Notes: generated by a model from the sequence alone, not told the origin. Numbered from the stretch's first letter, positions 12,854 through 54,381 are shown. The stretch is DNA of 64,000 nucleotides from Bacilli bacterium (GCA_045541255.1 JAZQIU010000045.1:2497-66496), one strand, 5' to 3'. Program-made: numbers and translations.

Positions 12854-12993
12854 AATGTAGTTTTTATATGAAATATAATATAAAATATTGTTGTTATTTT
12901 ATATAGATGTATGTTATTATAAATGTTGATATATTTAACATGCGTTAGTTGCACTCCTTAAAATTAAATTTTTAATTTTAAGGAGGTGAGTGT

Positions 12994-13071
12994 ATGACTA
13001 TAAGAGAGAAAACTCTATATTTCATAATACTTCTTCTATTTATTTTAGTATTTATACTATTATTTAGATAG
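12994..13071 (+). CDS. 25-aa hydrophobic peptide (candidate type I toxin)
   Basis: AAGGAGG RBS then ATG gives MTIREKTLYFIILLLFILVFILLFR. The RBS lies in the hairpin CTCCTTAAAATTAAA/TTAATTTTAAGGAG. The peptide is conserved in copy B. Confidence 0.5.
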   Translation: MTIREKTLYFIILLLFILVFILLFR

Positions 13072-13146
13072 AAAAAAAGCACACTAACGGGTTTTGGTTT
13101 AAGTTAGTGTGCACAAACCAATTTAGGAGTGTACCTAACATCCCAC
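13072..13146 (-). ncRNA. candidate antisense RNA overlapping the 3' UTR of the 25-aa ORF
   Basis: Hairpin GCACACTAAC/GTTAGTGTGC (13079-13112) is preceded on the + strand by A7, so it is an intrinsic terminator on the - strand. A TATACT -10-like hexamer sits at 13153-13158 on the - strand. The 5' end is a guess. Confidence 0.4.
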
Positions 13147-13225
13147 ATGTTAAGTATATCCTTTTTTATTTTATGCAAAATTTCTTGCTAAATACATATT
13201 ATCATATTAGTATTATTTAGTCAAT

Positions 13226-26108: not shown

Positions 26109-26210
26109 ATGAGCCACGGAACTTGCGGTCAAAATGGTGGTATAAGTGCTGCTGCATTTATATTAGTACTATTCATTTTATTAATTATCATTGTAGGGGC
26201 TTTTATTTAA
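26109..26210 (+). CDS. tiny TM protein, YjcZ-like family
   Basis: GGAGGGG RBS then MSHGTCGQNGGISAAAFILVLFILLIIIVGAFI. The Gly-rich head plus 'FILVLFILLII' tail matches the YjcZ tiny-TM pattern. Confidence 0.6.
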   Translation: MSHGTCGQNGGISAAAFILVLFILLIIIVGAFI

Positions 26211-26222
26211 GGAGGGAATGCT

Positions 26223-26345
26223 ATGAATAAACCATCTTGTAATAATAATAGTACTTGCAATAATAATAGATTTGGAGACTTATTTATTATTTTAGTTTTA
26301 TTTATTTTGTTAGCTATTATTGTTAGTGCTGTGTTTACTTATTAA
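26223..26345 (+). CDS. tiny TM protein, YjcZ-like family (tandem paralogue)
   Basis: GGAGGG RBS then MNKPSCNNNSTCNNNRFGDLFIILVLFILLAIIVSAVFTY. Confidence 0.55.
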   Translation: MNKPSCNNNSTCNNNRFGDLFIILVLFILLAIIVSAVFTY

Positions 26346-28164: not shown

Positions 28165-28244
28165 TATTTGTTAAATTTTATAATTTATAATACAATGTAT
28201 TTAGCAAGAGAGCTTGCATAAAATAAAAAGGATATACTTAACAT

Positions 28245-28319
28245 TTGCGGTGTTAGGTACACTCCTAATATTTGGTTGTGCACACTAACTTAAACCAAAA
28301 CCCGTTAGTGTGCTTTTTT
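28245..28319 (+). ncRNA. candidate antisense RNA to the 3' UTR of the 28320..28397 ORF
   Basis: TATACT hexamer (28233-28238), then hairpin GCACACTAAC/GTTAGTGTGC (28280-28313) followed by T6. This is an intrinsic terminator ending at the ORF stop codon. Confidence 0.4.
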
Positions 28320-28397
28320 CTATCTAAATAATAGTATAAATACTAAAATAAATAGAAGAAGTATTATGAAATAAAAAGTTTTTTCTCTAGTAGTCAT
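28320..28397 (-). CDS. 25-aa hydrophobic peptide (candidate type I toxin), paralogue of 12994..13071
   Basis: MTTREKTFYFIILLLFILVFILLFR. It differs from copy A at I3T and L8F plus one synonymous change. The hydrophobic core is identical. Confidence 0.5.
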   Translation of the reverse strand: MTTREKTFYFIILLLFILVFILLFR

Positions 28398-28515
28398 AAC
28401 CTCACCTCTTTAAAATTAATTGTAAGGAGTGCAACTAACGCATGTTAAACATATCATTGAATATGATTATATACTTGTATTTTTATACAAGTTATTTTTA
28501 TGTAATTTTACAAAT

Positions 28516-33695: not shown

Positions 33696-34817
33696 ATGAA
33701 TGGTAAAGAATTTATAAAAGCAGTTAAATTAATTACTGAGGAAAAAGGTATAAGTGAAGATGTAGTATTTGAAGGAATGGAACAAGCTTTAATTACTGCA
33801 TATAAAAAGAATTTTAAGAAACAAACTAATGTTAAAGTAGATATTAATAGAACTACAGGGGATATTAAAGTATTTAAATATTTTGTAGTTGTTGACGAAT
33901 ATCATGAAGGAGAAGAATACATCGATGAGGAAGGTAATACTAAATTTACTGAACCAGATATTAATGAAGATGCACAAGTATTGTTAGAAGATATTGTTGA
34001 GAAATATCCAGATGCTAAAGTTGGAGATGTTATTCAAGAAGAAGTAACTCCACAAGATTTTGGTAGGATTGCAACAAGTACTGCTAAACAAGTTTTAACT
34101 CAAAAGGTAAGAGAAGCTGAAAGAGCAAGTATTATGGCTGATTTTGAAGATAAACAAGATGAAATTATGGTTGGTAATCTTGCAATGGAAGATGCAAAAA
34201 ATTATTATGTTGATTTAGGTAGAAGTAGAGGAATTCTTCCTAAGAGTGAAATAATTCCTGGTGAAACTTTGAAAATGGGAAGTAGTATAAGAGTATATAT
34301 TAGTAAAATAGAAGAAACTACTAAAGGACCTTTAATTCTTTGTACTAGAAAACATTATGGTTTTGTTAAAAGATTATTTGAAAGTATTGTTCCAGAATTT
34401 AAAGATGGTATTTTATTATTACATGGTGTAGCTCGTGAAGCTGGTGTAAGAAGTAAAGTTGCTGTTTCAAGTTTAAATCCTAATATAGATCCTATTGGAG
34501 CTTGTATTGGTGAAAGAGGAAGCAGAATTGCTTCTATCTTAGCAGAATTAAATGGAGAAAAAGTTGATTTAGTTTTATATAGCGAAGATAATGCTGAATA
34601 TATTAAGAATGCTTTAAGTCCTGCAAAAGATGTTATTGTAAGTATTATTGATGATACTAAAAATCGTGAAGCTTTAGCAGTTGTTAATGATGAAAATCAA
34701 AGATTAGCAATTGGTAAAGGTGGTATAAATATTAAACTTGCTAGTAAATTAACTAAGTTTAGAATAAACATAAAAACTATGGAACAAATTAATGAAGAAG
34801 GAAATAAAGATGAATAA
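33696..34817 (+). CDS. nusA: transcription termination/antitermination factor NusA
   Basis: S1 and KH domains, 'ACIGERGSRIASILAELNGEKVDLV'. Confidence 0.95.
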   Translation: MNGKEFIKAVKLITEEKGISEDVVFEGMEQALITAYKKNFKKQTNVKVDINRTTGDIKVFKYFVVVDEYHEGEEYIDEEGNTKFTEPDINEDAQVLLEDIVEKYPDAKVGDVIQEEVTPQDFGRIATSTAKQVLTQKVREAERASIMADFEDKQDEIMVGNLAMEDAKNYYVDLGRSRGILPKSEIIPGETLKMGSSIRVYISKIEETTKGPLILCTRKHYGFVKRLFESIVPEFKDGILLLHGVAREAGVRSKVAVSSLNPNIDPIGACIGERGSRIASILAELNGEKVDLVLYSEDNAEYIKNALSPAKDVIVSIIDDTKNREALAVVNDENQRLAIGKGGINIKLASKLTKFRINIKTMEQINEEGNKDE

Positions 34818-35084: not shown

Positions 35085-37196
35085 ATGACAGTAAAAGATT
35101 ATGCTAATGAGTCTGGTTTTACAGTTCAAGAAGTATTAGAAAAATGTAGAGAGTTAGATATTAAATGTAATAATGCTGATGATTATTTAGATGATGATGG
35201 AATTATTATGTTGGATAATTGCATGCATTTAATTAGTACTGAAACAGAAATGGATTATGAAGCGATAGATGAATTAGATGAAGCAGTTGAAAATATAATG
35301 TTAGATTCTAATTTAGCGACTAAAGAAAAAAACACTGTAGTAAAGAAACAAAAAGTAAAGAAAAAAGGCGTTAATGAAAATGCTAAGAGTGAGTATTTGA
35401 AAAATAAGAAAGCTATGTATAAGAACAAAGAAAAATTATCTACTAATGAGGTTGATGAAAATGTTGTTTTATACAAAGAAGGAATGTCTTTAGGTGAACT
35501 TGCTAATGCATTAAATGTTTCTGCTGCTGAATTAATGAAGAAATTATTTAATATGGGTATGATGATTACTATTAATCAATCTATAGATTTTGAAAATGCA
35601 GAAATAGTTTCATTAGAATATGGTAAAACTTTAAAAAGAGAAGAAACTCAAGATATTTCAAATTTTGAAGAATATGAAATAGTTGATAATGAAAATGATT
35701 TAGTTAATCGTCCTCCAGTTATAACTATTATGGGACATGTAGATCATGGTAAAACAAGTTTATTAGACTATATTAGAAATAGTCATGTGGTTGATAAAGA
35801 ATTTGGTGGAATAACACAACATATTGGTGCATATCAAATTAATTATAATGATAATAAGATTACTTTTATAGATACTCCAGGACATGCTGCATTTACAGAA
35901 ATGCGTGCTAGAGGAGCAAGTATAACAGATATAGTTATTATCATTGTCGCTGCAGATGATGGGGTTATGCCTCAAACTAAGGAAGCAATAGATCATGCTT
36001 TAGCAGCTAATGTTCCTATAGTAGTTGCAGTTAATAAAATTGATAAACCAGAAGCAAATGTTGAAAGAATTAAAACGCAAATGGCTGAACATAATATTAC
36101 TCCTGAAGAATGGGGTGGAAATATACCATTTGTTGAAATTAGTGCAAAAACTGGTCAAGGTATAGATAATTTATTAGATACATTATTAGCAATAAGTGAA
36201 ATGGAAGAATTAAAAGCTAATCCAAATCGTTATGCAGTAGGTACTGTTATAGAATCTCGTGTTGATAAATCTATAGGTGGAGTTGCTACATTATTAATTC
36301 AAAATGGTACTTTAAGATTAGGTGATCCTATAGTTGTAGGTACTGCACATGGTAGAGTTAGAACATTTAAAAATGATTTAGGAGAAAATATTGTTGAAGC
36401 TGGTCCAAGTACTCCAGTTGAAATTACTGGTCTTTCAGATAATCCATCTGCTGGAGATAAATTTATGGCTTTTGAAACTGAAAAACTTGCTCGCGAAATT
36501 GCAGAAAAGAGATTAATTCAATCTAAAGCATCAATTAAGAAAGAAGTAGTTAACTTTGAAAATTTATTTGCTCAAATGCAATCAGGTGTTAAAGAAATTA
36601 ATGTAGTTTTAAAATGTGATGTTCGAGGCTCAGAAGAAGCTGTTAAAAATGCGTTAGAAAAAATTGATGTTGAAGGTGTTAGAGTAAAAATTATAAGAAG
36701 TGGTATTGGAACTATTACTGAATCAGATATAGTTTTAGCGAATGCTAGTAATGCAATTGTAATTGGATTTAATGTTGTTCCTAGTGCAATAACTAAAGAA
36801 GTAGCTAAAGAATATAGCGTTGAATTAAGACTATATACTATTATTTATAAATTAGTTGAAGAAATGGAACTTGCTATGAAAGGTATGTTAGATCCTGAAT
36901 ATGAAGAACAAGTAATTGGTAGTGCTGAAGTTAGAAGAATATTTACATTCTCTAAAGTTGGTAAGATTGCTGGAGTTATGGTAACAGATGGAATTATTAA
37001 ATCAACTGCTAATGTTAGAGTTGTTCGTGATGGTGTTATCATATATGATGGTAAAGTTGGAAGTTTACAACGTGAAAAAGATTCTGTAAAAGAAGTTAAA
37101 CGTGGATTCGAATGTGGTGTTACTATAGACGGATATAGTGATATTAAAGAACAAGATGTATTTGAATTCTATGAAAATGTTTTGGTAAAAAGATAA
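35085..37196 (+). CDS. infB: translation initiation factor IF-2
   Basis: G-domain '[12 protein letters not shown]', 'DTPGH', 'NKID'. Confidence 0.95.
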
Positions 37197-37221
37197 AAAG
37201 TTGTTTGTTAACAACTTTTTT
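37195..37221 (+). terminator. intrinsic terminator after infB
   Basis: AAAAGTTGTT-tgtt-AACAACTTTT followed by a T-run. Confidence 0.7.
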
Positions 37222-37230
37222 TGTATTGTT

Positions 37231-37259
37231 TTGTCAAATGATTTGAAATAAATTATAGT
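37231..37259 (+). promoter_or_regulatory. sense promoter of family-2 element copy 1
   Basis: TTGTCA (37231-37236), 17-nt spacer, TATAGT (37254-37259). Confidence 0.6.
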
Positions 37260-37336
37260 TAGTTTATAATAACTAACCGAACATTCAATTAGTTAATGCC
37301 TGCCTCATACTTGAAAGATAGAAAGAGGTTTGATAT

Positions 37337-37423
37337 ATGAGTATAAAAAGTTTCTTGATAAAAGTACTTGATAGACTTATTATCATTTTATCTTTAATCC
37401 TCCTACAAGGGTTTTGGAGATAA
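37337..37423 (+). CDS. 28-aa hydrophobic peptide (candidate type I toxin)
   Basis: AAGAGG RBS then MSIKSFLIKVLDRLIIILSLILLQGFWR. The peptide is identical in copy 2 despite two nucleotide changes, both synonymous. Confidence 0.55.
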   Translation: MSIKSFLIKVLDRLIIILSLILLQGFWR

Positions 37424-37503
37424 AAAAACGACATTAACCGATGGTTAATGTCTAACCCAATGAGGTAGACATTCAACTTGGACATTGAATGTTCTATCTT
37501 CAT
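37422..37503 (-). ncRNA. candidate antisense RNA (about 80 nt) to the 3' UTR of the 28-aa ORF
   Basis: A - strand promoter lies at 37510-37538. The - strand terminator is GACATTAACC-atc-GGTTAATGTC followed by T-rich 'GTTTTTTT', ending at the ORF stop. Confidence 0.5.
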
Positions 37504-37509
37504 AAGTTA

Positions 37510-37538
37510 ATTTTAACATATTATAAATATTGTGTCAA
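37510..37538 (-). promoter_or_regulatory. antisense promoter of family-2 element copy 1
   Basis: On the - strand: TTGACA (37538-37533), 17-nt spacer, TAAAAT (37515-37510). Confidence 0.6.
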
Positions 37539-37582
37539 AAAGTTATTAATGGTAAAATATAGATAGAAATGAGGGAAAAATC

Positions 37583-37933
37583 ATGAATCAAATTAAGTTA
37601 AAAAGAATTGCTTCTCAAATAATTAGAGAAGTTAGTGATATATTACAAAATGAAGCGAGAGACAGATTGATGCATACTATAACAATTACTGGATGTGATG
37701 TTAGTAGTGATTTAGGATATGCTAAGATTTATTTTACTTGTGTTTTAGATATTGAAAAACGCGATATAGAACGCGAATTAGAAGAAGCTTCCGGATATAT
37801 TAGAAGAGAGTTAGCAGAGAGAATAGATGTACGACATACTCCTAAATTAGTTTTTAAATTTGATGAATCAGTAGAATATGGTAATCATATAGATAATATA
37901 ATAGAAAAAATACATGATAAGGAAAATGTTTAG
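37583..37933 (+). CDS. rbfA: ribosome-binding factor A
   Basis: 'LKRIASQIIREVSDIL...ITGCDVSSDLGYAKIYF...RHTPKLVFKFD'. Confidence 0.9.
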   Translation: MNQIKLKRIASQIIREVSDILQNEARDRLMHTITITGCDVSSDLGYAKIYFTCVLDIEKRDIERELEEASGYIRRELAERIDVRHTPKLVFKFDESVEYGNHIDNIIEKIHDKENV

Positions 37934-37957: not shown

Positions 37958-38797
37958 ATGAACGGTATATTAGTTGTTAACAAAGAAAAAGGATATACAT
38001 CTCGTGATGTTGTTAATATAGTTTCTAAAGTTTTAAACACAAAAAAGATTGGACATACTGGTACTTTAGATCCTATTGCAGAAGGTGTATTGGTTTTAAC
38101 TATTGGAAAATGTACTAAATTATGTGATTATTTAACTAGTAATTATAAAGAATATATTGCAGAATTTGAATTAGGATATGAAACTGATACTTTAGATAAT
38201 ACAGGTAAAGTTTTAAAAACTATTGATAAACAAGTTAGTGAAGAAGATATTGTTAATGTTGTAAAAAGTTTTGTTGGTGAATATAATCAAGAGGTCCCTA
38301 AATATAGTGCTGTGAAGATTAATGGTAGAAAATTATATGAGTATGCTAGAAATGAAGAAGAAGTGTCTTTGCCTAGTAGATTAGTTGATATTAAAAATGT
38401 TGAAGTGATAGATGTTGGTAAAGTTATTAAAATAAAGTGTATGGTTTCTAAAGGAACCTATATTAGAAGTTTAATAAGAGATATAGGTTTAAAATTAGGT
38501 ACTTATGCTACTATGACTAGTTTGTTGAGAACTATGCAAGGTGAGTTTTCTATAAATAATAGTTATAGCTTGGATGATATTAAAAACGGTAACTTTAAAT
38601 TACTAAGTATAGAAGAACTATTTAAAGAATATCCTAAAATTTATTTAGATGAATATAGTTATAAAAAAGTATCTAATGGTTGTATATTAGAGAATAATTA
38701 TGATAGTGAATATATATTATTTTATTATCAAGATAATTTAGTTAGTATTTATAAATGTATTGAAAATAAAAAGATTAAACCATTTATTATGTTTTAA
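37958..38797 (+). CDS. truB: tRNA pseudouridine(55) synthase
   Basis: 'GILVVNKEKGYTSRDVV...GHTGTLDPIAEGVLVL'. Confidence 0.9.
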   Translation: MNGILVVNKEKGYTSRDVVNIVSKVLNTKKIGHTGTLDPIAEGVLVLTIGKCTKLCDYLTSNYKEYIAEFELGYETDTLDNTGKVLKTIDKQVSEEDIVNVVKSFVGEYNQEVPKYSAVKINGRKLYEYARNEEEVSLPSRLVDIKNVEVIDVGKVIKIKCMVSKGTYIRSLIRDIGLKLGTYATMTSLLRTMQGEFSINNSYSLDDIKNGNFKLLSIEELFKEYPKIYLDEYSYKKVSNGCILENNYDSEYILFYYQDNLVSIYKCIENKKIKPFIMF

Positions 38798-46208: not shown

Positions 46209-46233
46209 AAGATAGTTTTTTCTATCTTTTTTT
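46208..46233 (+). terminator. intrinsic terminator after polA
   Basis: AAAGATAG-tttttt-CTATCTTT followed by a T-run. Confidence 0.7.
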
Positions 46234-46241
46234 GTAATGTT

Positions 46242-46270
46242 TTGTCGAATAATTTGAAATAAATTATAGT
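46242..46270 (+). promoter_or_regulatory. sense promoter of family-2 element copy 2
   Basis: TTGTCG, 17-nt spacer, TATAGT. Confidence 0.55.
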
Positions 46271-46348
46271 TAGTTTATAATAACTAACCGAACATTCAAT
46301 TAGTTAATGCCTGCCTCTTATTTAAAAAAAAGAAAAGAGGTTTGATAA

Positions 46349-46435
46349 ATGAGTATAAAAAGTTTCTTAATAAAAGTGCTTGATAGACTTATTATCATTT
46401 TATCTTTAATCCTCCTACAAGGGTTTTGGAGATAA
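46349..46435 (+). CDS. 28-aa hydrophobic peptide (candidate type I toxin), identical to 37337..37423 product
   Basis: MSIKSFLIKVLDRLIIILSLILLQGFWR. Codon 7 is TTA vs TTG and codon 10 is GTG vs GTA; both changes are synonymous. Confidence 0.55.
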   Translation: MSIKSFLIKVLDRLIIILSLILLQGFWR

Positions 46436-46510
46436 AAAATGACATTAACCAAAGGTTAATGTCTCACCACTTGAGGTAGGCATTCAATCTTCGCAATTGA
46501 ATGTTCTACT
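46434..46510 (-). ncRNA. candidate antisense RNA, copy 2
   Basis: The - strand promoter is TTGACA (46545-46540), 17-nt spacer, TACTAT (46522-46517). The terminator is GACATTAACC-ttt-GGTTAATGTC followed by T-rich 'ATTTTTT' on the - strand. Confidence 0.5.
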
Positions 46511-46516
46511 AATTAA

Positions 46517-46545
46517 ATAGTATCAAAGAAGAGTTGTGTTGTCAA
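46517..46545 (-). promoter_or_regulatory. antisense promoter of family-2 element copy 2
   Basis: TTGACA-17-TACTAT on the - strand. The position is equivalent to copy 1 although the sequence differs. Confidence 0.55.
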
Positions 46546-46611
46546 ATCTTCTTTTTTTTGTTATAATCAATATACCTTTTAAAACTTTTATTAATTATTT
46601 TTTAGAAAGAG

Positions 46612-54120: not shown

Positions 54121-54381
54121 ATGAAAGAAGCAAGTGGAGAATTAAGTATGACTGCTATCGCAGTAGTTGCTATAGCTGCTGTTGGAGGTATTTTTATGAC
54201 ATTTGTTTGGCCACAATTAAAAGGTTCAATGATTGCAAAAACAAAATGTCAAAGTGCATATAATTGTACTGCTTGTACTGGTGCTGCTGCTGGAAAGGCT
54301 GGTACAAAAACTTGTACAGGTTACTATGATGCAGATGGTAAATCACAAACTGATGCTGCTGGATTTACTTGTGATTGTTAA
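54121..54381 (+). CDS. small Flp-like (class III signal peptide-like) Cys-rich protein
   Basis: 'MKEASG/ELSMTAIAVVAIAAVGGIF' resembles Flp-type prepilin heads ('G-xSMxEYGLLVALIAVV'). The tail carries 6 Cys and is Gly/Ala/Thr-rich. Confidence 0.4.
   Translation: MKEASGELSMTAIAVVAIAAVGGIFMTFVWPQLKGSMIAKTKCQSAYNCTACTGAAAGKAGTKTCTGYYDADGKSQTDAAGFTCDC

What the first reader, a model, noticed from the sequence alone, without database searches (positions are those of the whole stretch)
37221..37538. Type I toxin-antitoxin-like module (family 2, copy 1) inserted between infB and rbfA
Seen on the + strand: promoter TTGTCA-17-TATAGT, a ~70-nt leader, an AAGAGG RBS and a 28-aa ORF (MSIKSFLIKVLDRLIIILSLILLQGFWR). 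Seen on the - strand: promoter TTGACA-17-TAAAAT, and a hairpin GACATTAACC/GGTTAATGTC with a U-tract that terminates exactly at the ORF stop. This predicts an ~80-nt antisense RNA covering the 3' UTR. The leader segment GAACATTCAAT...AATGCCTGCCTCA is complementary to the 3' segment TGAGGTAGACATT...ATTGAATGTTC, so the mRNA ends can pair. The antisense RNA would therefore look like the mRNA's own leader. Established: convergent 3'-overlapping antisense RNAs (txpA/RatA, bsrG/SR4) and 5'/3' long-distance pairing (hok, aapA1) are hallmarks of type I TA systems. Inference: the peptide is a membrane toxin, and I do not recognise it as any named family. The element separates infB from rbfA-truB, genes that are commonly co-transcribed.
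Basis: partly seen in the sequence, partly recalled or inferred. Interest (0 to 1): 0.7.

Follow-up and report, generated by a model that had tools for sequence, protein, structure and literature searches.

The report
New bsrG/SR4-like toxin–antisense RNA module
Between infB and rbfA sits a small gene for a 28-residue hydrophobic peptide, with a convergent antisense RNA gene over its 3' end; it belongs to an unnamed multi-copy family of type I toxin-antitoxin-like modules in uncultured low-GC gut Bacilli, and its RNA layout matches the studied bsrG/SR4 system of Bacillus subtilis.

Summary
A second copy lies at 46226-46560, between polA and the RNase J gene.

A scan of public genomes and metagenomes, followed by a profile search, gave 21 related elements. 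They come from the window, 7 species-level Bacilli genome bins (MAGs) and 5 metagenome contigs.
- All 21 carry an intact 25-28-codon hydrophobic ORF with a strong ribosome-binding site (pN/pS 0-0.5).
- All 21 have a minus-strand terminator that abuts the stop codon.
- In 19 of 21, a promoter-like site sits just upstream of the mRNA 5' arm.
- Antisense promoters sit at positions fixed within each subfamily.
- All have a 26-30 bp pairing between the first nucleotides of the mRNA and its 3' UTR. This pairing is kept by compensatory changes: 15 pairs changed on both sides against 1-4 in controls.

No Rfam, Pfam or NCBIfam family matches. The architecture is not new: bsrG/SR4 has the same 5'-3' helix whose 3' strand is covered by the antisense RNA.

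Verdict: a real, new family of a known kind. Transcripts and toxicity remain untested.

The parts
37188..37227 (+). AT-rich hairpin plus T-run after the infB stop. It is probably infB's own terminator and marks the left boundary of the module.
   Evidence: Inverted repeat I1. Homology between copy 1 and copy 2 starts in this T-run.
37243..37270 (+). Toxin mRNA promoter TTGAAA-16-TATAAT, conserved across the family.
   Evidence: In 19 of 21 elements a promoter-like site has its -10 ending 5-10 nt before the 5' arm.
37279..37308 (+). 5' arm and leader strand of the long-range helix (GAACAUUCAAU.UAGUUAAUG.CCUGCCUCAU). The anti-SD GCCUC at 37302-37306 lies inside it.
37324..37328 (+). Shine-Dalgarno sequence AGAGG. 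It pairs with the anti-SD when the leader is not held by the 3' UTR.
37337..37423 (+). Toxin-like ORF, 28 aa: MSIKSFLIKVLDRLIIILSLILLQGFWR.
37420..37452 (-). Intrinsic terminator of the antisense RNA. The hairpin is at 37452..37430 and is followed by G+U7 ending at the toxin stop codon. There is no U-run on the plus strand.
   Evidence: Seven of its 10 pairs show compensatory change.
37460..37494 (+). 3' UTR strand of the long-range helix (AUGAGGUAG.ACAU.UCAACU...AUUGAAUGUUC).
37423..37503 (-). Predicted antisense (antitoxin) RNA of about 81 nt. It consists of a 5' hairpin, a single-stranded UUGGGUU linker and the terminator. It is fully complementary to the mRNA 3' UTR and resembles the mRNA leader.
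37510..37538 (-). Antisense promoter TTGACA-17-(TG)TAAAAT.
   Evidence: It is identical in the orthologous element L003.
46226..46560 (+). Copy 2, between polA and the RNase J gene. ORF 46349-46435 encodes the identical peptide. Arms are at 46290-46300 and 46496-46506. The antisense promoter has its -35 at 46545..46540 and its -10 TACTAT at 46522..46517. An AT-rich hairpin plus T8 at 46525-46559 is a possible terminator of the mRNA.
12928..13160 (+). The peptide is MTIREKTLYFIILLLFILVFILLFR. It has the same architecture with different arms: GATATATTTAACATG / CATGTTAAGTATATC.
28231..28455 (-). Second "family 1" copy. The peptide is MTTREKTFYFIILLLFILVFILLFR.

Best explanation
The locus is a chromosomal type I toxin-antitoxin-like module built like bsrG/SR4 of Bacillus subtilis.

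Inferred from the sequence:
- A promoter at 37243-37270 makes a mRNA of at least about 216 nt for a 28-aa hydrophobic peptide.
- A convergent promoter at 37538-37510 makes an antisense RNA of about 81 nt. It ends at a terminator that abuts the toxin stop codon, so it is complementary to the whole 3' UTR.

Shown by covariation:
- The first 30 or so nucleotides of the mRNA pair with its 3' UTR in a 26-30 bp helix.

Predicted by folding:
- While the mRNA is nascent, the anti-SD GCCUC closes the ribosome-binding site.
- Once the 3' UTR is made and no antisense RNA is present, the 3' UTR captures the leader, including the anti-SD. The ribosome-binding site then becomes partly accessible.
- If antisense RNA is present, it forms a duplex of about 72 bp with the 3' UTR. 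This expels the leader, and the anti-SD hairpin re-forms.

Inferred by analogy with bsrG/SR4 and txpA/RatA:
- The duplex is an RNase III substrate.
- The freed single-stranded 5' end is open to RNase J.
- The result is less translation and faster decay of the toxin mRNA.

The peptide is presumed to insert into the membrane and to be harmful when over-produced. This has not been tested.
For: - A second copy in the window is 91% identical and encodes the identical peptide; both ORF differences are synonymous.
- There are 21 family members. All have an intact 25-28-codon hydrophobic ORF with a GGAGG/AGAGG-type ribosome-binding site (GGAUG in one element) upstream of the start codon. pN/pS is 0-0.5 in all but two nearly identical pairs, which differ at only 1-4 sites. 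Second codon positions change least.
- The cognate leader/3' UTR duplex is -25 to -37 kcal/mol in all 21. Pairings between different arm classes give only -8 to -20.
- In the covariation count, 90.7% of cells are paired against 28-40% when partners are slid. Fifteen pairs changed on both sides against 1-4 in the slid controls. 0 of 500 shuffles reached the observed value.
- L009c has two compensatory changes in the outer arm.
- The plus-strand version of the helix is more stable than the minus-strand version in 15 of 21 elements, because of G-U pairs.
- An mRNA promoter-like site sits 5-10 nt before the arm in 19 of 21 elements. Antisense promoters sit at subfamily-fixed positions and score at least 10.5 in 17 of 21; 1.7-2.8% of random windows reach that score.
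- The ribosome-binding site is closed in the nascent and antisense-bound states and partly open in the full-length fold for W1, W2 and L008. P(unpaired) is 0.36-0.65 against 0-0.21.
- Orthologous elements sit at the same two sites in a related species. They are 89-90% identical (ORF 95%), while third codon positions of the flanking genes are 79-87% identical.
- Precedent: bsrG helix P1 joins nt 1-35 with nt 232-262. SR4 binding frees nt 1-33 and extends the helix over the ribosome-binding site from 4 to 8 bp (PMC3834814; PMC6562991).
Against: - There is no expression, toxicity or RNase data for any member.
- Opening of the ribosome-binding site by the long-range helix is predicted only for subfamily A, and weakly for C (8 to 5 bp). 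It is not predicted for subfamily B, where the site stays paired in both states. Translational control may therefore not be the common mechanism.
- The subfamily A peptide has only a 14-residue uncharged stretch, with D12 and R13 in the middle. This is less typical of a transmembrane toxin than the subfamily B-E peptides.
- Copy 1 has no recognisable plus-strand terminator before rbfA, so the 3' end of its mRNA is undefined.
- A strain variant (L001) carries a Q24stop as its only difference in 345 nt. This could mean inactivation of a toxin or weak constraint on the ORF.
- The invariance of the outer arm among subfamilies A-C is partly an artefact, because the search pattern required it.
Confidence: 0.7

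Rival explanations
1. The module encodes an ordinary small membrane protein that is not a toxin. A cis-antisense RNA tunes its expression. The architecture is the same, but there is no toxin-antitoxin (addiction or stress) biology.
For: - Toxicity is untested.
- The subfamily A peptide is only moderately hydrophobic (GRAVY 1.35; 14-residue uncharged run).
- The modules sit stably at the same chromosomal sites in two species.
- The window also has other small hydrophobic ORFs with no evident antisense partner.
Against: - The elements are multi-copy, dispersed and sometimes tandem: 4 in this 64-kb window, 3 in tandem in L009 and 2 in L006.
- The ribosome-binding site is tightly sequestered.
- The mRNA ends pair, and there is a dedicated strong antisense promoter with a perfect TTGACA.
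- All of these are typical of type I toxins and unusual for housekeeping small proteins.
Confidence: 0.17
2. The antisense RNA acts mainly by promoting decay, as RatA does on txpA. The 5'-3' helix serves only to stabilise the mRNA, by hiding the 5' end from RNase J, and perhaps to terminate it. There is no switching of the ribosome-binding site.
For: - In subfamilies B, D and E the anti-SD hairpin is separate from the long-range helix, and the ribosome-binding site stays paired in both states.
- In subfamilies B-E a U-run follows the 3' arm directly.
- RatA and SR5 act through decay only (PMC6562991).
Against: In the window's own subfamily the anti-SD GCCUC is part of the long-range helix. Folding and cofolding both predict a switch. 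This is a variant of the main explanation rather than a contradiction of it.
Confidence: 0.3
3. The element is a miniature inverted-repeat transposable element (MITE). The arms are terminal inverted repeats recognised by a transposase, and the ORF and RNA features are incidental.
For: - The 11-12 bp terminal inverted repeats are perfect.
- The elements are multi-copy, lie between genes, and have unrelated flanking genes.
Against: - Homology between copies extends about 55 nt beyond the 5' arm and into the antisense promoter.
- The arms differ completely between subfamilies yet stay complementary: GAATGTTCAAT, GATATATTTAACATG, ATGACACATTT.
- The ORF is conserved, with substitution patterns typical of coding sequence.
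- G-U pairs favour an RNA helix on the plus strand.
- No target-site duplication was seen at the boundaries of W1 and W2, and no transposase gene lies nearby.
Confidence: 0.03

Closest known systems
bsrG/SR4 (Bacillus subtilis SPbeta prophage type I toxin-antitoxin system)
   Same: - The antisense RNA is convergent and covers the 3' end of the toxin mRNA.
- The mRNA 5' end (nt 1-35) pairs with its 3' part (nt 232-262) in a long helix, P1.
- The ribosome-binding site lies in a stem on top of P1.
- Antisense binding frees the 5' strand and lengthens the helix over the ribosome-binding site from 4 to 8 bp.
- The duplex is cut by RNase III (PMC3834814, PMC6562991).
- The predicted behaviour of W1 and W2 is the same.
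   Different: - The peptide is unrelated in sequence and shorter: 25-28 aa here, against 38 aa for BsrG (length from my own knowledge).
- The antisense RNA is shorter, about 80-110 nt.
- The antisense terminator lies between the stop codon and the 3' strand of the helix.
- In subfamilies B-E the long-range helix is followed directly by a U-run, rather than by a separate terminator stem-loop.
- The modules are chromosomal, multi-copy and not in a prophage.
- The hosts are uncultured low-GC gut Bacilli.
txpA/RatA, bsrE/SR5 and yonT/SR6 (B. subtilis)
   Same: - They have convergent, 3'-overlapping antisense RNAs.
- They encode small hydrophobic toxins.
- The ribosome-binding site lies in a double-stranded region.
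- RNase III-dependent decay is the expected outcome (PMC6562991).
   Different: - Their overlaps are longer, 100-140 bp.
- No conformational change was seen for RatA or SR5.
- The toxins show no sequence similarity to these peptides.
hok/Sok and aapA/IsoA
   Same: [quoted passage not shown]
- They use anti-SD elements.
- A local 5' hairpin can form before the 3' end is transcribed. Here a CAUUCAA/UUGGGUG hairpin is predicted when the 3' region is unavailable. PMC9841398 describes the hok case.
   Different: - There, the antisense RNA targets the 5' region of a 3'-processed mRNA, and the long-distance helix keeps the ribosome-binding site closed.
- Here, the antisense RNA targets the 3' strand of that helix. 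In subfamily A the helix is predicted to open the ribosome-binding site rather than close it.
fst/RNAII (par of pAD1)
   Same: The RNAs are convergent, the peptide is small and hydrophobic, and the host is a Firmicute.
   Different: - par uses direct repeats, which make the 5' ends of the two RNAs complementary, and a shared bidirectional terminator.
- Here the repeats are inverted, so the two 5' ends are alike rather than complementary.
- Here the terminator works on one strand only.

Membership tests
Type I toxin-antitoxin system (generic) | A small (under 60 aa) hydrophobic peptide ORF with its own ribosome-binding site, conserved as coding sequence. | tested here: met
   21 of 21 ORFs are intact, 25-28 codons long, with a ribosome-binding site upstream. 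pN/pS is 0-0.5 in all but two nearly identical pairs. GRAVY is 1.35-2.57.
Type I toxin-antitoxin system (generic) | An antisense RNA gene with its own promoter and terminator, complementary to the toxin mRNA. | tested here: met
   This was tested in silico only. There is a minus-strand promoter with a score in the top 0.1-3% of random windows. The terminator is orientation-specific and covaries. Both are present in all members. The transcripts themselves have not been observed.
Type I toxin-antitoxin system (generic) | The peptide is toxic on over-expression and the RNA neutralises it. | not testable with these tools
   This needs an expression experiment.
bsrG/SR4-type architecture | The antisense RNA is convergent and overlaps the 3' end of the toxin mRNA. 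| tested here: met
   The antisense RNA at 37503..37423 covers the 3' UTR up to the stop codon.
bsrG/SR4-type architecture | A long helix joins the mRNA 5' end and its 3' part, and the antisense RNA covers the 3' strand of that helix. | tested here: met
   The helix is 26-30 bp and -25 to -37 kcal/mol in all 21 elements, with covariation.
bsrG/SR4-type architecture | Antisense binding increases sequestration of the ribosome-binding site. | tested here: inconclusive
   It is predicted for subfamily A (P(unpaired) falls from 0.36-0.65 to 0-0.21) and weakly for subfamily C. It is not predicted for subfamily B. This rests on thermodynamic prediction only.
BsrG/TxpA toxin protein families | Sequence homology of the peptide to these toxins. 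| tested here: not met
   No Pfam or NCBIfam family matched 6 representative peptides, even at E up to 10. No direct alignment to BsrG was run.
hok/Sok and aapA/IsoA | The antisense RNA pairs with the 5' UTR or translation-initiation region of a 3'-processed mRNA. | tested here: not met
   The antisense gene lies entirely downstream of the stop codon.
fst/RNAII (par) | Direct repeats make the 5' ends of the two RNAs complementary, and the two RNAs share a bidirectional terminator. | tested here: not met
   The repeats are inverted. A U-run follows the hairpin only on the minus strand.
Known RNA families (Rfam 15) | A match at the family's gathering score. | tested here: not met
   Across the whole window only two tRNAs matched. 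The best sub-threshold hit in the region was 24 bits against a gathering score of 60.
MITE | Terminal inverted repeats of fixed sequence that bound the repeated unit, target-site duplications, and no selected coding content. | tested here: not met
   Homology extends beyond the arms. The arms covary between subfamilies. The ORF is under purifying selection.

The most novel reading that the evidence does not exclude
The module may be wired into the expression of the housekeeping genes beside it.

Copy 1 has no recognisable plus-strand terminator between the 3' arm and rbfA, and infB has its own terminator upstream. In the other subfamilies the 5'-3' end-pairing helix is followed directly by a U-run.

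The long-range helix could therefore act as a long-range intrinsic terminator. Its formation would be blocked when the antisense RNA occupies the 3' strand. The ratio of toxin mRNA to antisense RNA would then decide between termination and read-through into rbfA-truB (copy 1) or the RNase J gene (copy 2). That would couple a toxin-antitoxin-like switch to ribosome maturation and RNA decay genes.
Probability: 0.1. Interest if true: 0.75.

Novelty: new member of a known kind. Interest (0 to 1): 0.58.

Why it matters
- It adds a previously unnamed, covariation-supported superfamily of type I toxin-antitoxin-like modules. The hosts are uncultured gut Bacilli with very low GC content. I did not look for earlier reports of such systems in this group.
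- The regulatory layout worked out experimentally for one B. subtilis prophage system (bsrG/SR4) recurs here with unrelated sequences. That layout is mRNA end-pairing whose 3' strand is the antisense target. The recurrence suggests it is a general design solution.
- The 21 natural variants carry different arm sequences. They form a ready-made set of compensatory mutants for testing how antisense RNA competes with mRNA end-pairing.
- The peptides are shorter than 30 aa, which by my knowledge is below common gene-caller length cut-offs, so standard annotation probably misses the family. The protein-search tools here refuse queries under 40 aa.

Tried and rejected
The protein databases could therefore not be interrogated.
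- Rfam gave no family at gathering or permissive thresholds. Pfam and NCBIfam gave none for the peptides.
- blastn of the element against the plasmid and phage collections gave no match.
- The arm-pattern scan of viral contigs gave one chance hit, L019. Four of the nine metagenome hits (L011, L013, L015, L017) were also chance matches, with no ORF and a different GC content.
I rejected it in favour of TTGAAA-16-TATAAT, because only the latter has a counterpart at the same distance from the arm in most other elements.
- I considered a general model in which the 3' UTR opens the ribosome-binding site. I rejected it as general because subfamily B keeps the site paired in both states.
- I considered direct binding of the antisense RNA to the ribosome-binding site in trans. 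I judged it unlikely, because only 4-5 nt of anti-SD are shared.
- I considered a MITE and a par-like direct-repeat design. Both are rejected (see the membership tests).
- MAFFT could not align the arms of the three most divergent members. The formal pair count therefore used 18 sequences, and the other three were assessed through the cross-duplex matrix.

Full report
**1. The observation**

The window has 25.5% GC. Pfam identifies nusA (33696-34817), ylxR, infB (35085-37196), rbfA (37583-37933) and truB (37958-38797).
- the ORF 37337-37423, preceded by AAGAGG;
- the plus-strand site TTGTCA-17-TATAGT;
- the minus-strand site TTGACA-17-TAAAAT (37538..37510, with TG before the -10);
- the hairpin 37430-37452, followed on the minus strand only by G+U7, which runs into the stop codon;
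- two blocks of inverted repeat that join 37279-37308 to 37460-37494.

The terminator is the only one called in 1 kb, where shuffles give 0.1. The 216-nt plus-strand RNA folds at -64.6 kcal/mol (z = -6.6). The 81-nt minus-strand RNA folds at -25.4 kcal/mol (z = -4.5).

**2. Copies and relatives**

A second copy, 91% identical and encoding the identical peptide, lies at 46226-46508 between polA and the RNase J gene. The only two differences inside the ORF are synonymous.

A pattern made of the two 11-nt arms was scanned against one genome per GTDB species. It found 9 elements in 7 "uncultured Bacilli bacterium" MAGs, from rabbit gut bins and other sources. In JGI metagenomes it found 5 true members and 4 chance hits. 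In viral contigs it found only a chance hit.

A profile built from these 16 elements was then run over all fetched DNA. It found five more members whose arms differ:
- L006:2275-2494;
- L009:3220-3432;
- L016:11892-12106;
- window 12928-13160 (+);
- window 28231-28455 (-).

Families 1 and 2 are therefore branches of one superfamily, and this 64-kb window carries four members.

**3. The ORF is a gene**

All 21 elements have an intact ORF of 25-28 codons. Twenty start with ATG and one with GTG. Each has a GGAGG/AGAGG-type ribosome-binding site (GGAUG in one element) upstream of the start codon.

The peptides fall into several types:
- MSIKSFL[IL]K[VF]LDRLIIILSLILLQGFWR: the window copies and their orthologues;
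- M[STN]KKD[FL][LI]I followed by about 19 hydrophobic residues;
- MTKK/REx-YFF types.

Within subfamilies pS exceeds pN in all but two nearly identical pairs (pN/pS 0-0.5), and second codon positions change least. GRAVY is 1.35-2.57. No Pfam or NCBIfam family matches.

One strain-level variant exists: Logan contig L001, whose RbfA is 100% and TruB 97% identical to the window's. It is identical over 345 nt except for C37406T, which turns Gln24 into a stop.

**4. The two promoters and the terminator are conserved**

In 19 of 21 elements a TTGnnn-16/18-TAnnnT promoter, often TG-extended, ends 5-10 nt before the 5' arm. The mRNA therefore starts at or just before G37279.

On the other strand every subfamily has a promoter at a fixed position:
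- Subfamily A: TTGACA-17-TAAAAT or TACTAT, 10-15 nt before the arm.
- Subfamily C: TTGCTA-17-TATAAT, 15 nt before the arm.
- Subfamilies B and D: TTGnnA-17-(TGn)TATTAT, 34-39 nt before the arm. Their antisense RNA gains a covarying 5' hairpin (AUGAAG/CUUCAU, GAGA/UCUC, GCAAG/CUUGC).

Seventeen of 21 score at least 10.5, a score reached by 1.7-2.8% of random windows from the same DNA.

The hairpin after the stop codon has a U-run only on the minus strand in all members. Seven of its 10 pairs show compensatory change.

**5. The 5'-3' helix is real**

In every element the first 28 or so nucleotides of the mRNA pair with the last 45 or so nucleotides before the end of the 3' arm. The helix is 26-30 bp and -25 to -37 kcal/mol.

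Between arm classes the sequences are unrelated but stay complementary:
- GAACATTCAAT/ATTGAATGTTC;
- GAATGTTCAAT/ATTGAACATTC in L009c;
- GATATATTTAACATG/CATGTTAAGTATATC in "family 1";
- ATGACACATTT/AAATGTGTCAT in L016b.

Cognate duplexes are about -31 to -34 kcal/mol. Non-cognate duplexes are -8 to -20.

On an 18-sequence alignment:
- 90.7% of cells pair, against 28-40% with slid partners;
- 15 pairs have changes on both sides, against 1-4 in the slid controls;
- 0 of 500 shuffles reach the observed value.

The plus-strand version of the helix is the more stable in 15 of 21 elements, because of G-U pairs. This points to the mRNA rather than to DNA or a minus-strand RNA.

The invariance of the outer 11 bp among subfamilies A-C is partly ascertainment, because the scan demanded it.

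**6. Mechanism**

The antisense RNA is complementary to the 3' strand of this helix. It therefore necessarily resembles the leader and competes with it.

For the window's subfamily the anti-SD GCCUC (37302-37306) is part of the leader strand.
- Nascent RNA, and RNA whose 3' region is blocked, fold GCCUC onto AGAGG (37324-37328). P(unpaired) for the ribosome-binding site is 0-0.21.
- In the full-length fold the 3' UTR takes the anti-SD, and P(unpaired) rises to 0.36-0.65 in W1, W2 and L008.
- Cofolding mRNA and antisense RNA gives a duplex of about 72 bp (a gain of -63 kcal/mol) and a re-closed ribosome-binding site.

In subfamily C the helix over the ribosome-binding site goes from 8 to 5 bp. 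In subfamily B no consistent change is predicted.

This is the behaviour shown experimentally for bsrG/SR4. Helix P1 joins nt 1-35 and nt 232-262. SR4 binding makes nt 1-33 single-stranded and extends the helix over the ribosome-binding site from 4 to 8 bp. RNase III cuts the duplex (PMC3834814; PMC6562991).

It differs from hok. There the 5'-3' helix keeps the ribosome-binding site closed, and the antisense RNA acts at the 5' end (PMC9841398).

My best account is therefore that the antisense RNA (i) triggers decay and (ii) at least in subfamily A, locks the ribosome-binding site. The helix, the promoters, the terminator and the ORF are shown by comparative analysis. The roles of the RNases, the toxicity and the switch are inferred.

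**7. Genomic behaviour**

The MAG JAZLAK01 (SGB_4643) has proteins 86-99% identical to the window's. It carries orthologous elements at the same two sites: nusA-ylxR-infB-[element]-rbfA-truB and polA-[element]-rnj. The elements are 89-90% identical overall: ORF 95%, leader 91%, 3' UTR 92%. Third codon positions of the neighbouring genes are 79-87% identical. This indicates mild purifying selection on the whole module.

Elsewhere the flanking genes are unrelated housekeeping genes. They include a class I tRNA synthetase, an ABC ATPase, a HAD hydrolase, Ham1, a WYL regulator, HD-domain proteins, a flavodoxin, an amylase, a class-V aminotransferase and ribosomal protein L28. No transposase or phage genes are present. 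Tandem arrays occur: three copies in L009 and two in L006. Nothing similar is found in the plasmid or phage collections.

**8. Verdict**

By sequence this is a new family: no RNA or protein family matches it. By architecture it is a known kind, and the closest known system is bsrG/SR4.

Open points:
- how the mRNA of copy 1 ends, and whether it reads into rbfA;
- whether the U-run after the helix in other subfamilies makes the end-pairing helix a terminator;
- the role of the conserved single-stranded ACCAA linker.

Noticed in passing
Each has a promoter, a 5' arm, an anti-SD hairpin, an ORF, a minus-strand terminator, a 3' arm, a U-run and an antisense promoter with a 5' hairpin. They match the family-2 profile at E of about 1e-6. 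The two families are one superfamily.
   Followed up: partly
L001:1-345 (Logan SRR28204439 contig), equivalent to window 37260-37604: This is a strain variant with identical RbfA. Its only difference across the element is C37406T, which makes Gln24 a stop in the toxin ORF. The contig also breaks inside the element, as expected for a repeat.
   Followed up: partly
L009:2501-3432 and L006:1909-2494: These are tandem arrays of three and two modules. The third L009 copy has a "family 1"-like peptide and arms with two compensatory base-pair changes.
   Followed up: partly
window 26109-26210 and 26223-26345 (+): Two tandem small ORFs (33 and 40 aa) have strong GGAGG sites and a shared ...FILVLFILL(I/A)IIV... 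hydrophobic core after a Gly/Asn/Cys-rich N-terminus. From memory they resemble the YjcZ / tiny-TM peptides of Bacilli. This was not tested.
   Followed up: no
window 54196-54381 (+): A 61-aa (or 50-aa) Cys/Thr/Gly/Ala-rich ORF lies in an 817-nt intergenic gap. It may be a ribosomally made peptide precursor (lantipeptide or bacteriocin-like). This was not examined.
   Followed up: no
window 37455-37461 and the equivalent position in most homologues: A conserved single-stranded (A)ACCAA motif lies between the antisense terminator hairpin and the 3' strand of the long-range helix. In the antisense RNA it reads UUGGU(U), which is YUNR-like. It could be the site where the two RNAs first make contact.
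   Followed up: no
window 46525-46559 (+): In copy 2 (and in L008) an AT-rich hairpin plus T8 could terminate the toxin mRNA. Its loop contains the -35 TTGACA of the antisense promoter. Copy 1 (and L003) has no counterpart before rbfA.
   Followed up: partly
window 37530-37558 (+): A possible rbfA promoter, TTGTGT-17-(TGg)TAAAAT, lies back-to-back with the antisense -35 and overlaps it. infB has its own terminator, so rbfA-truB must be driven either from here or by read-through from the toxin promoter.
   Followed up: no
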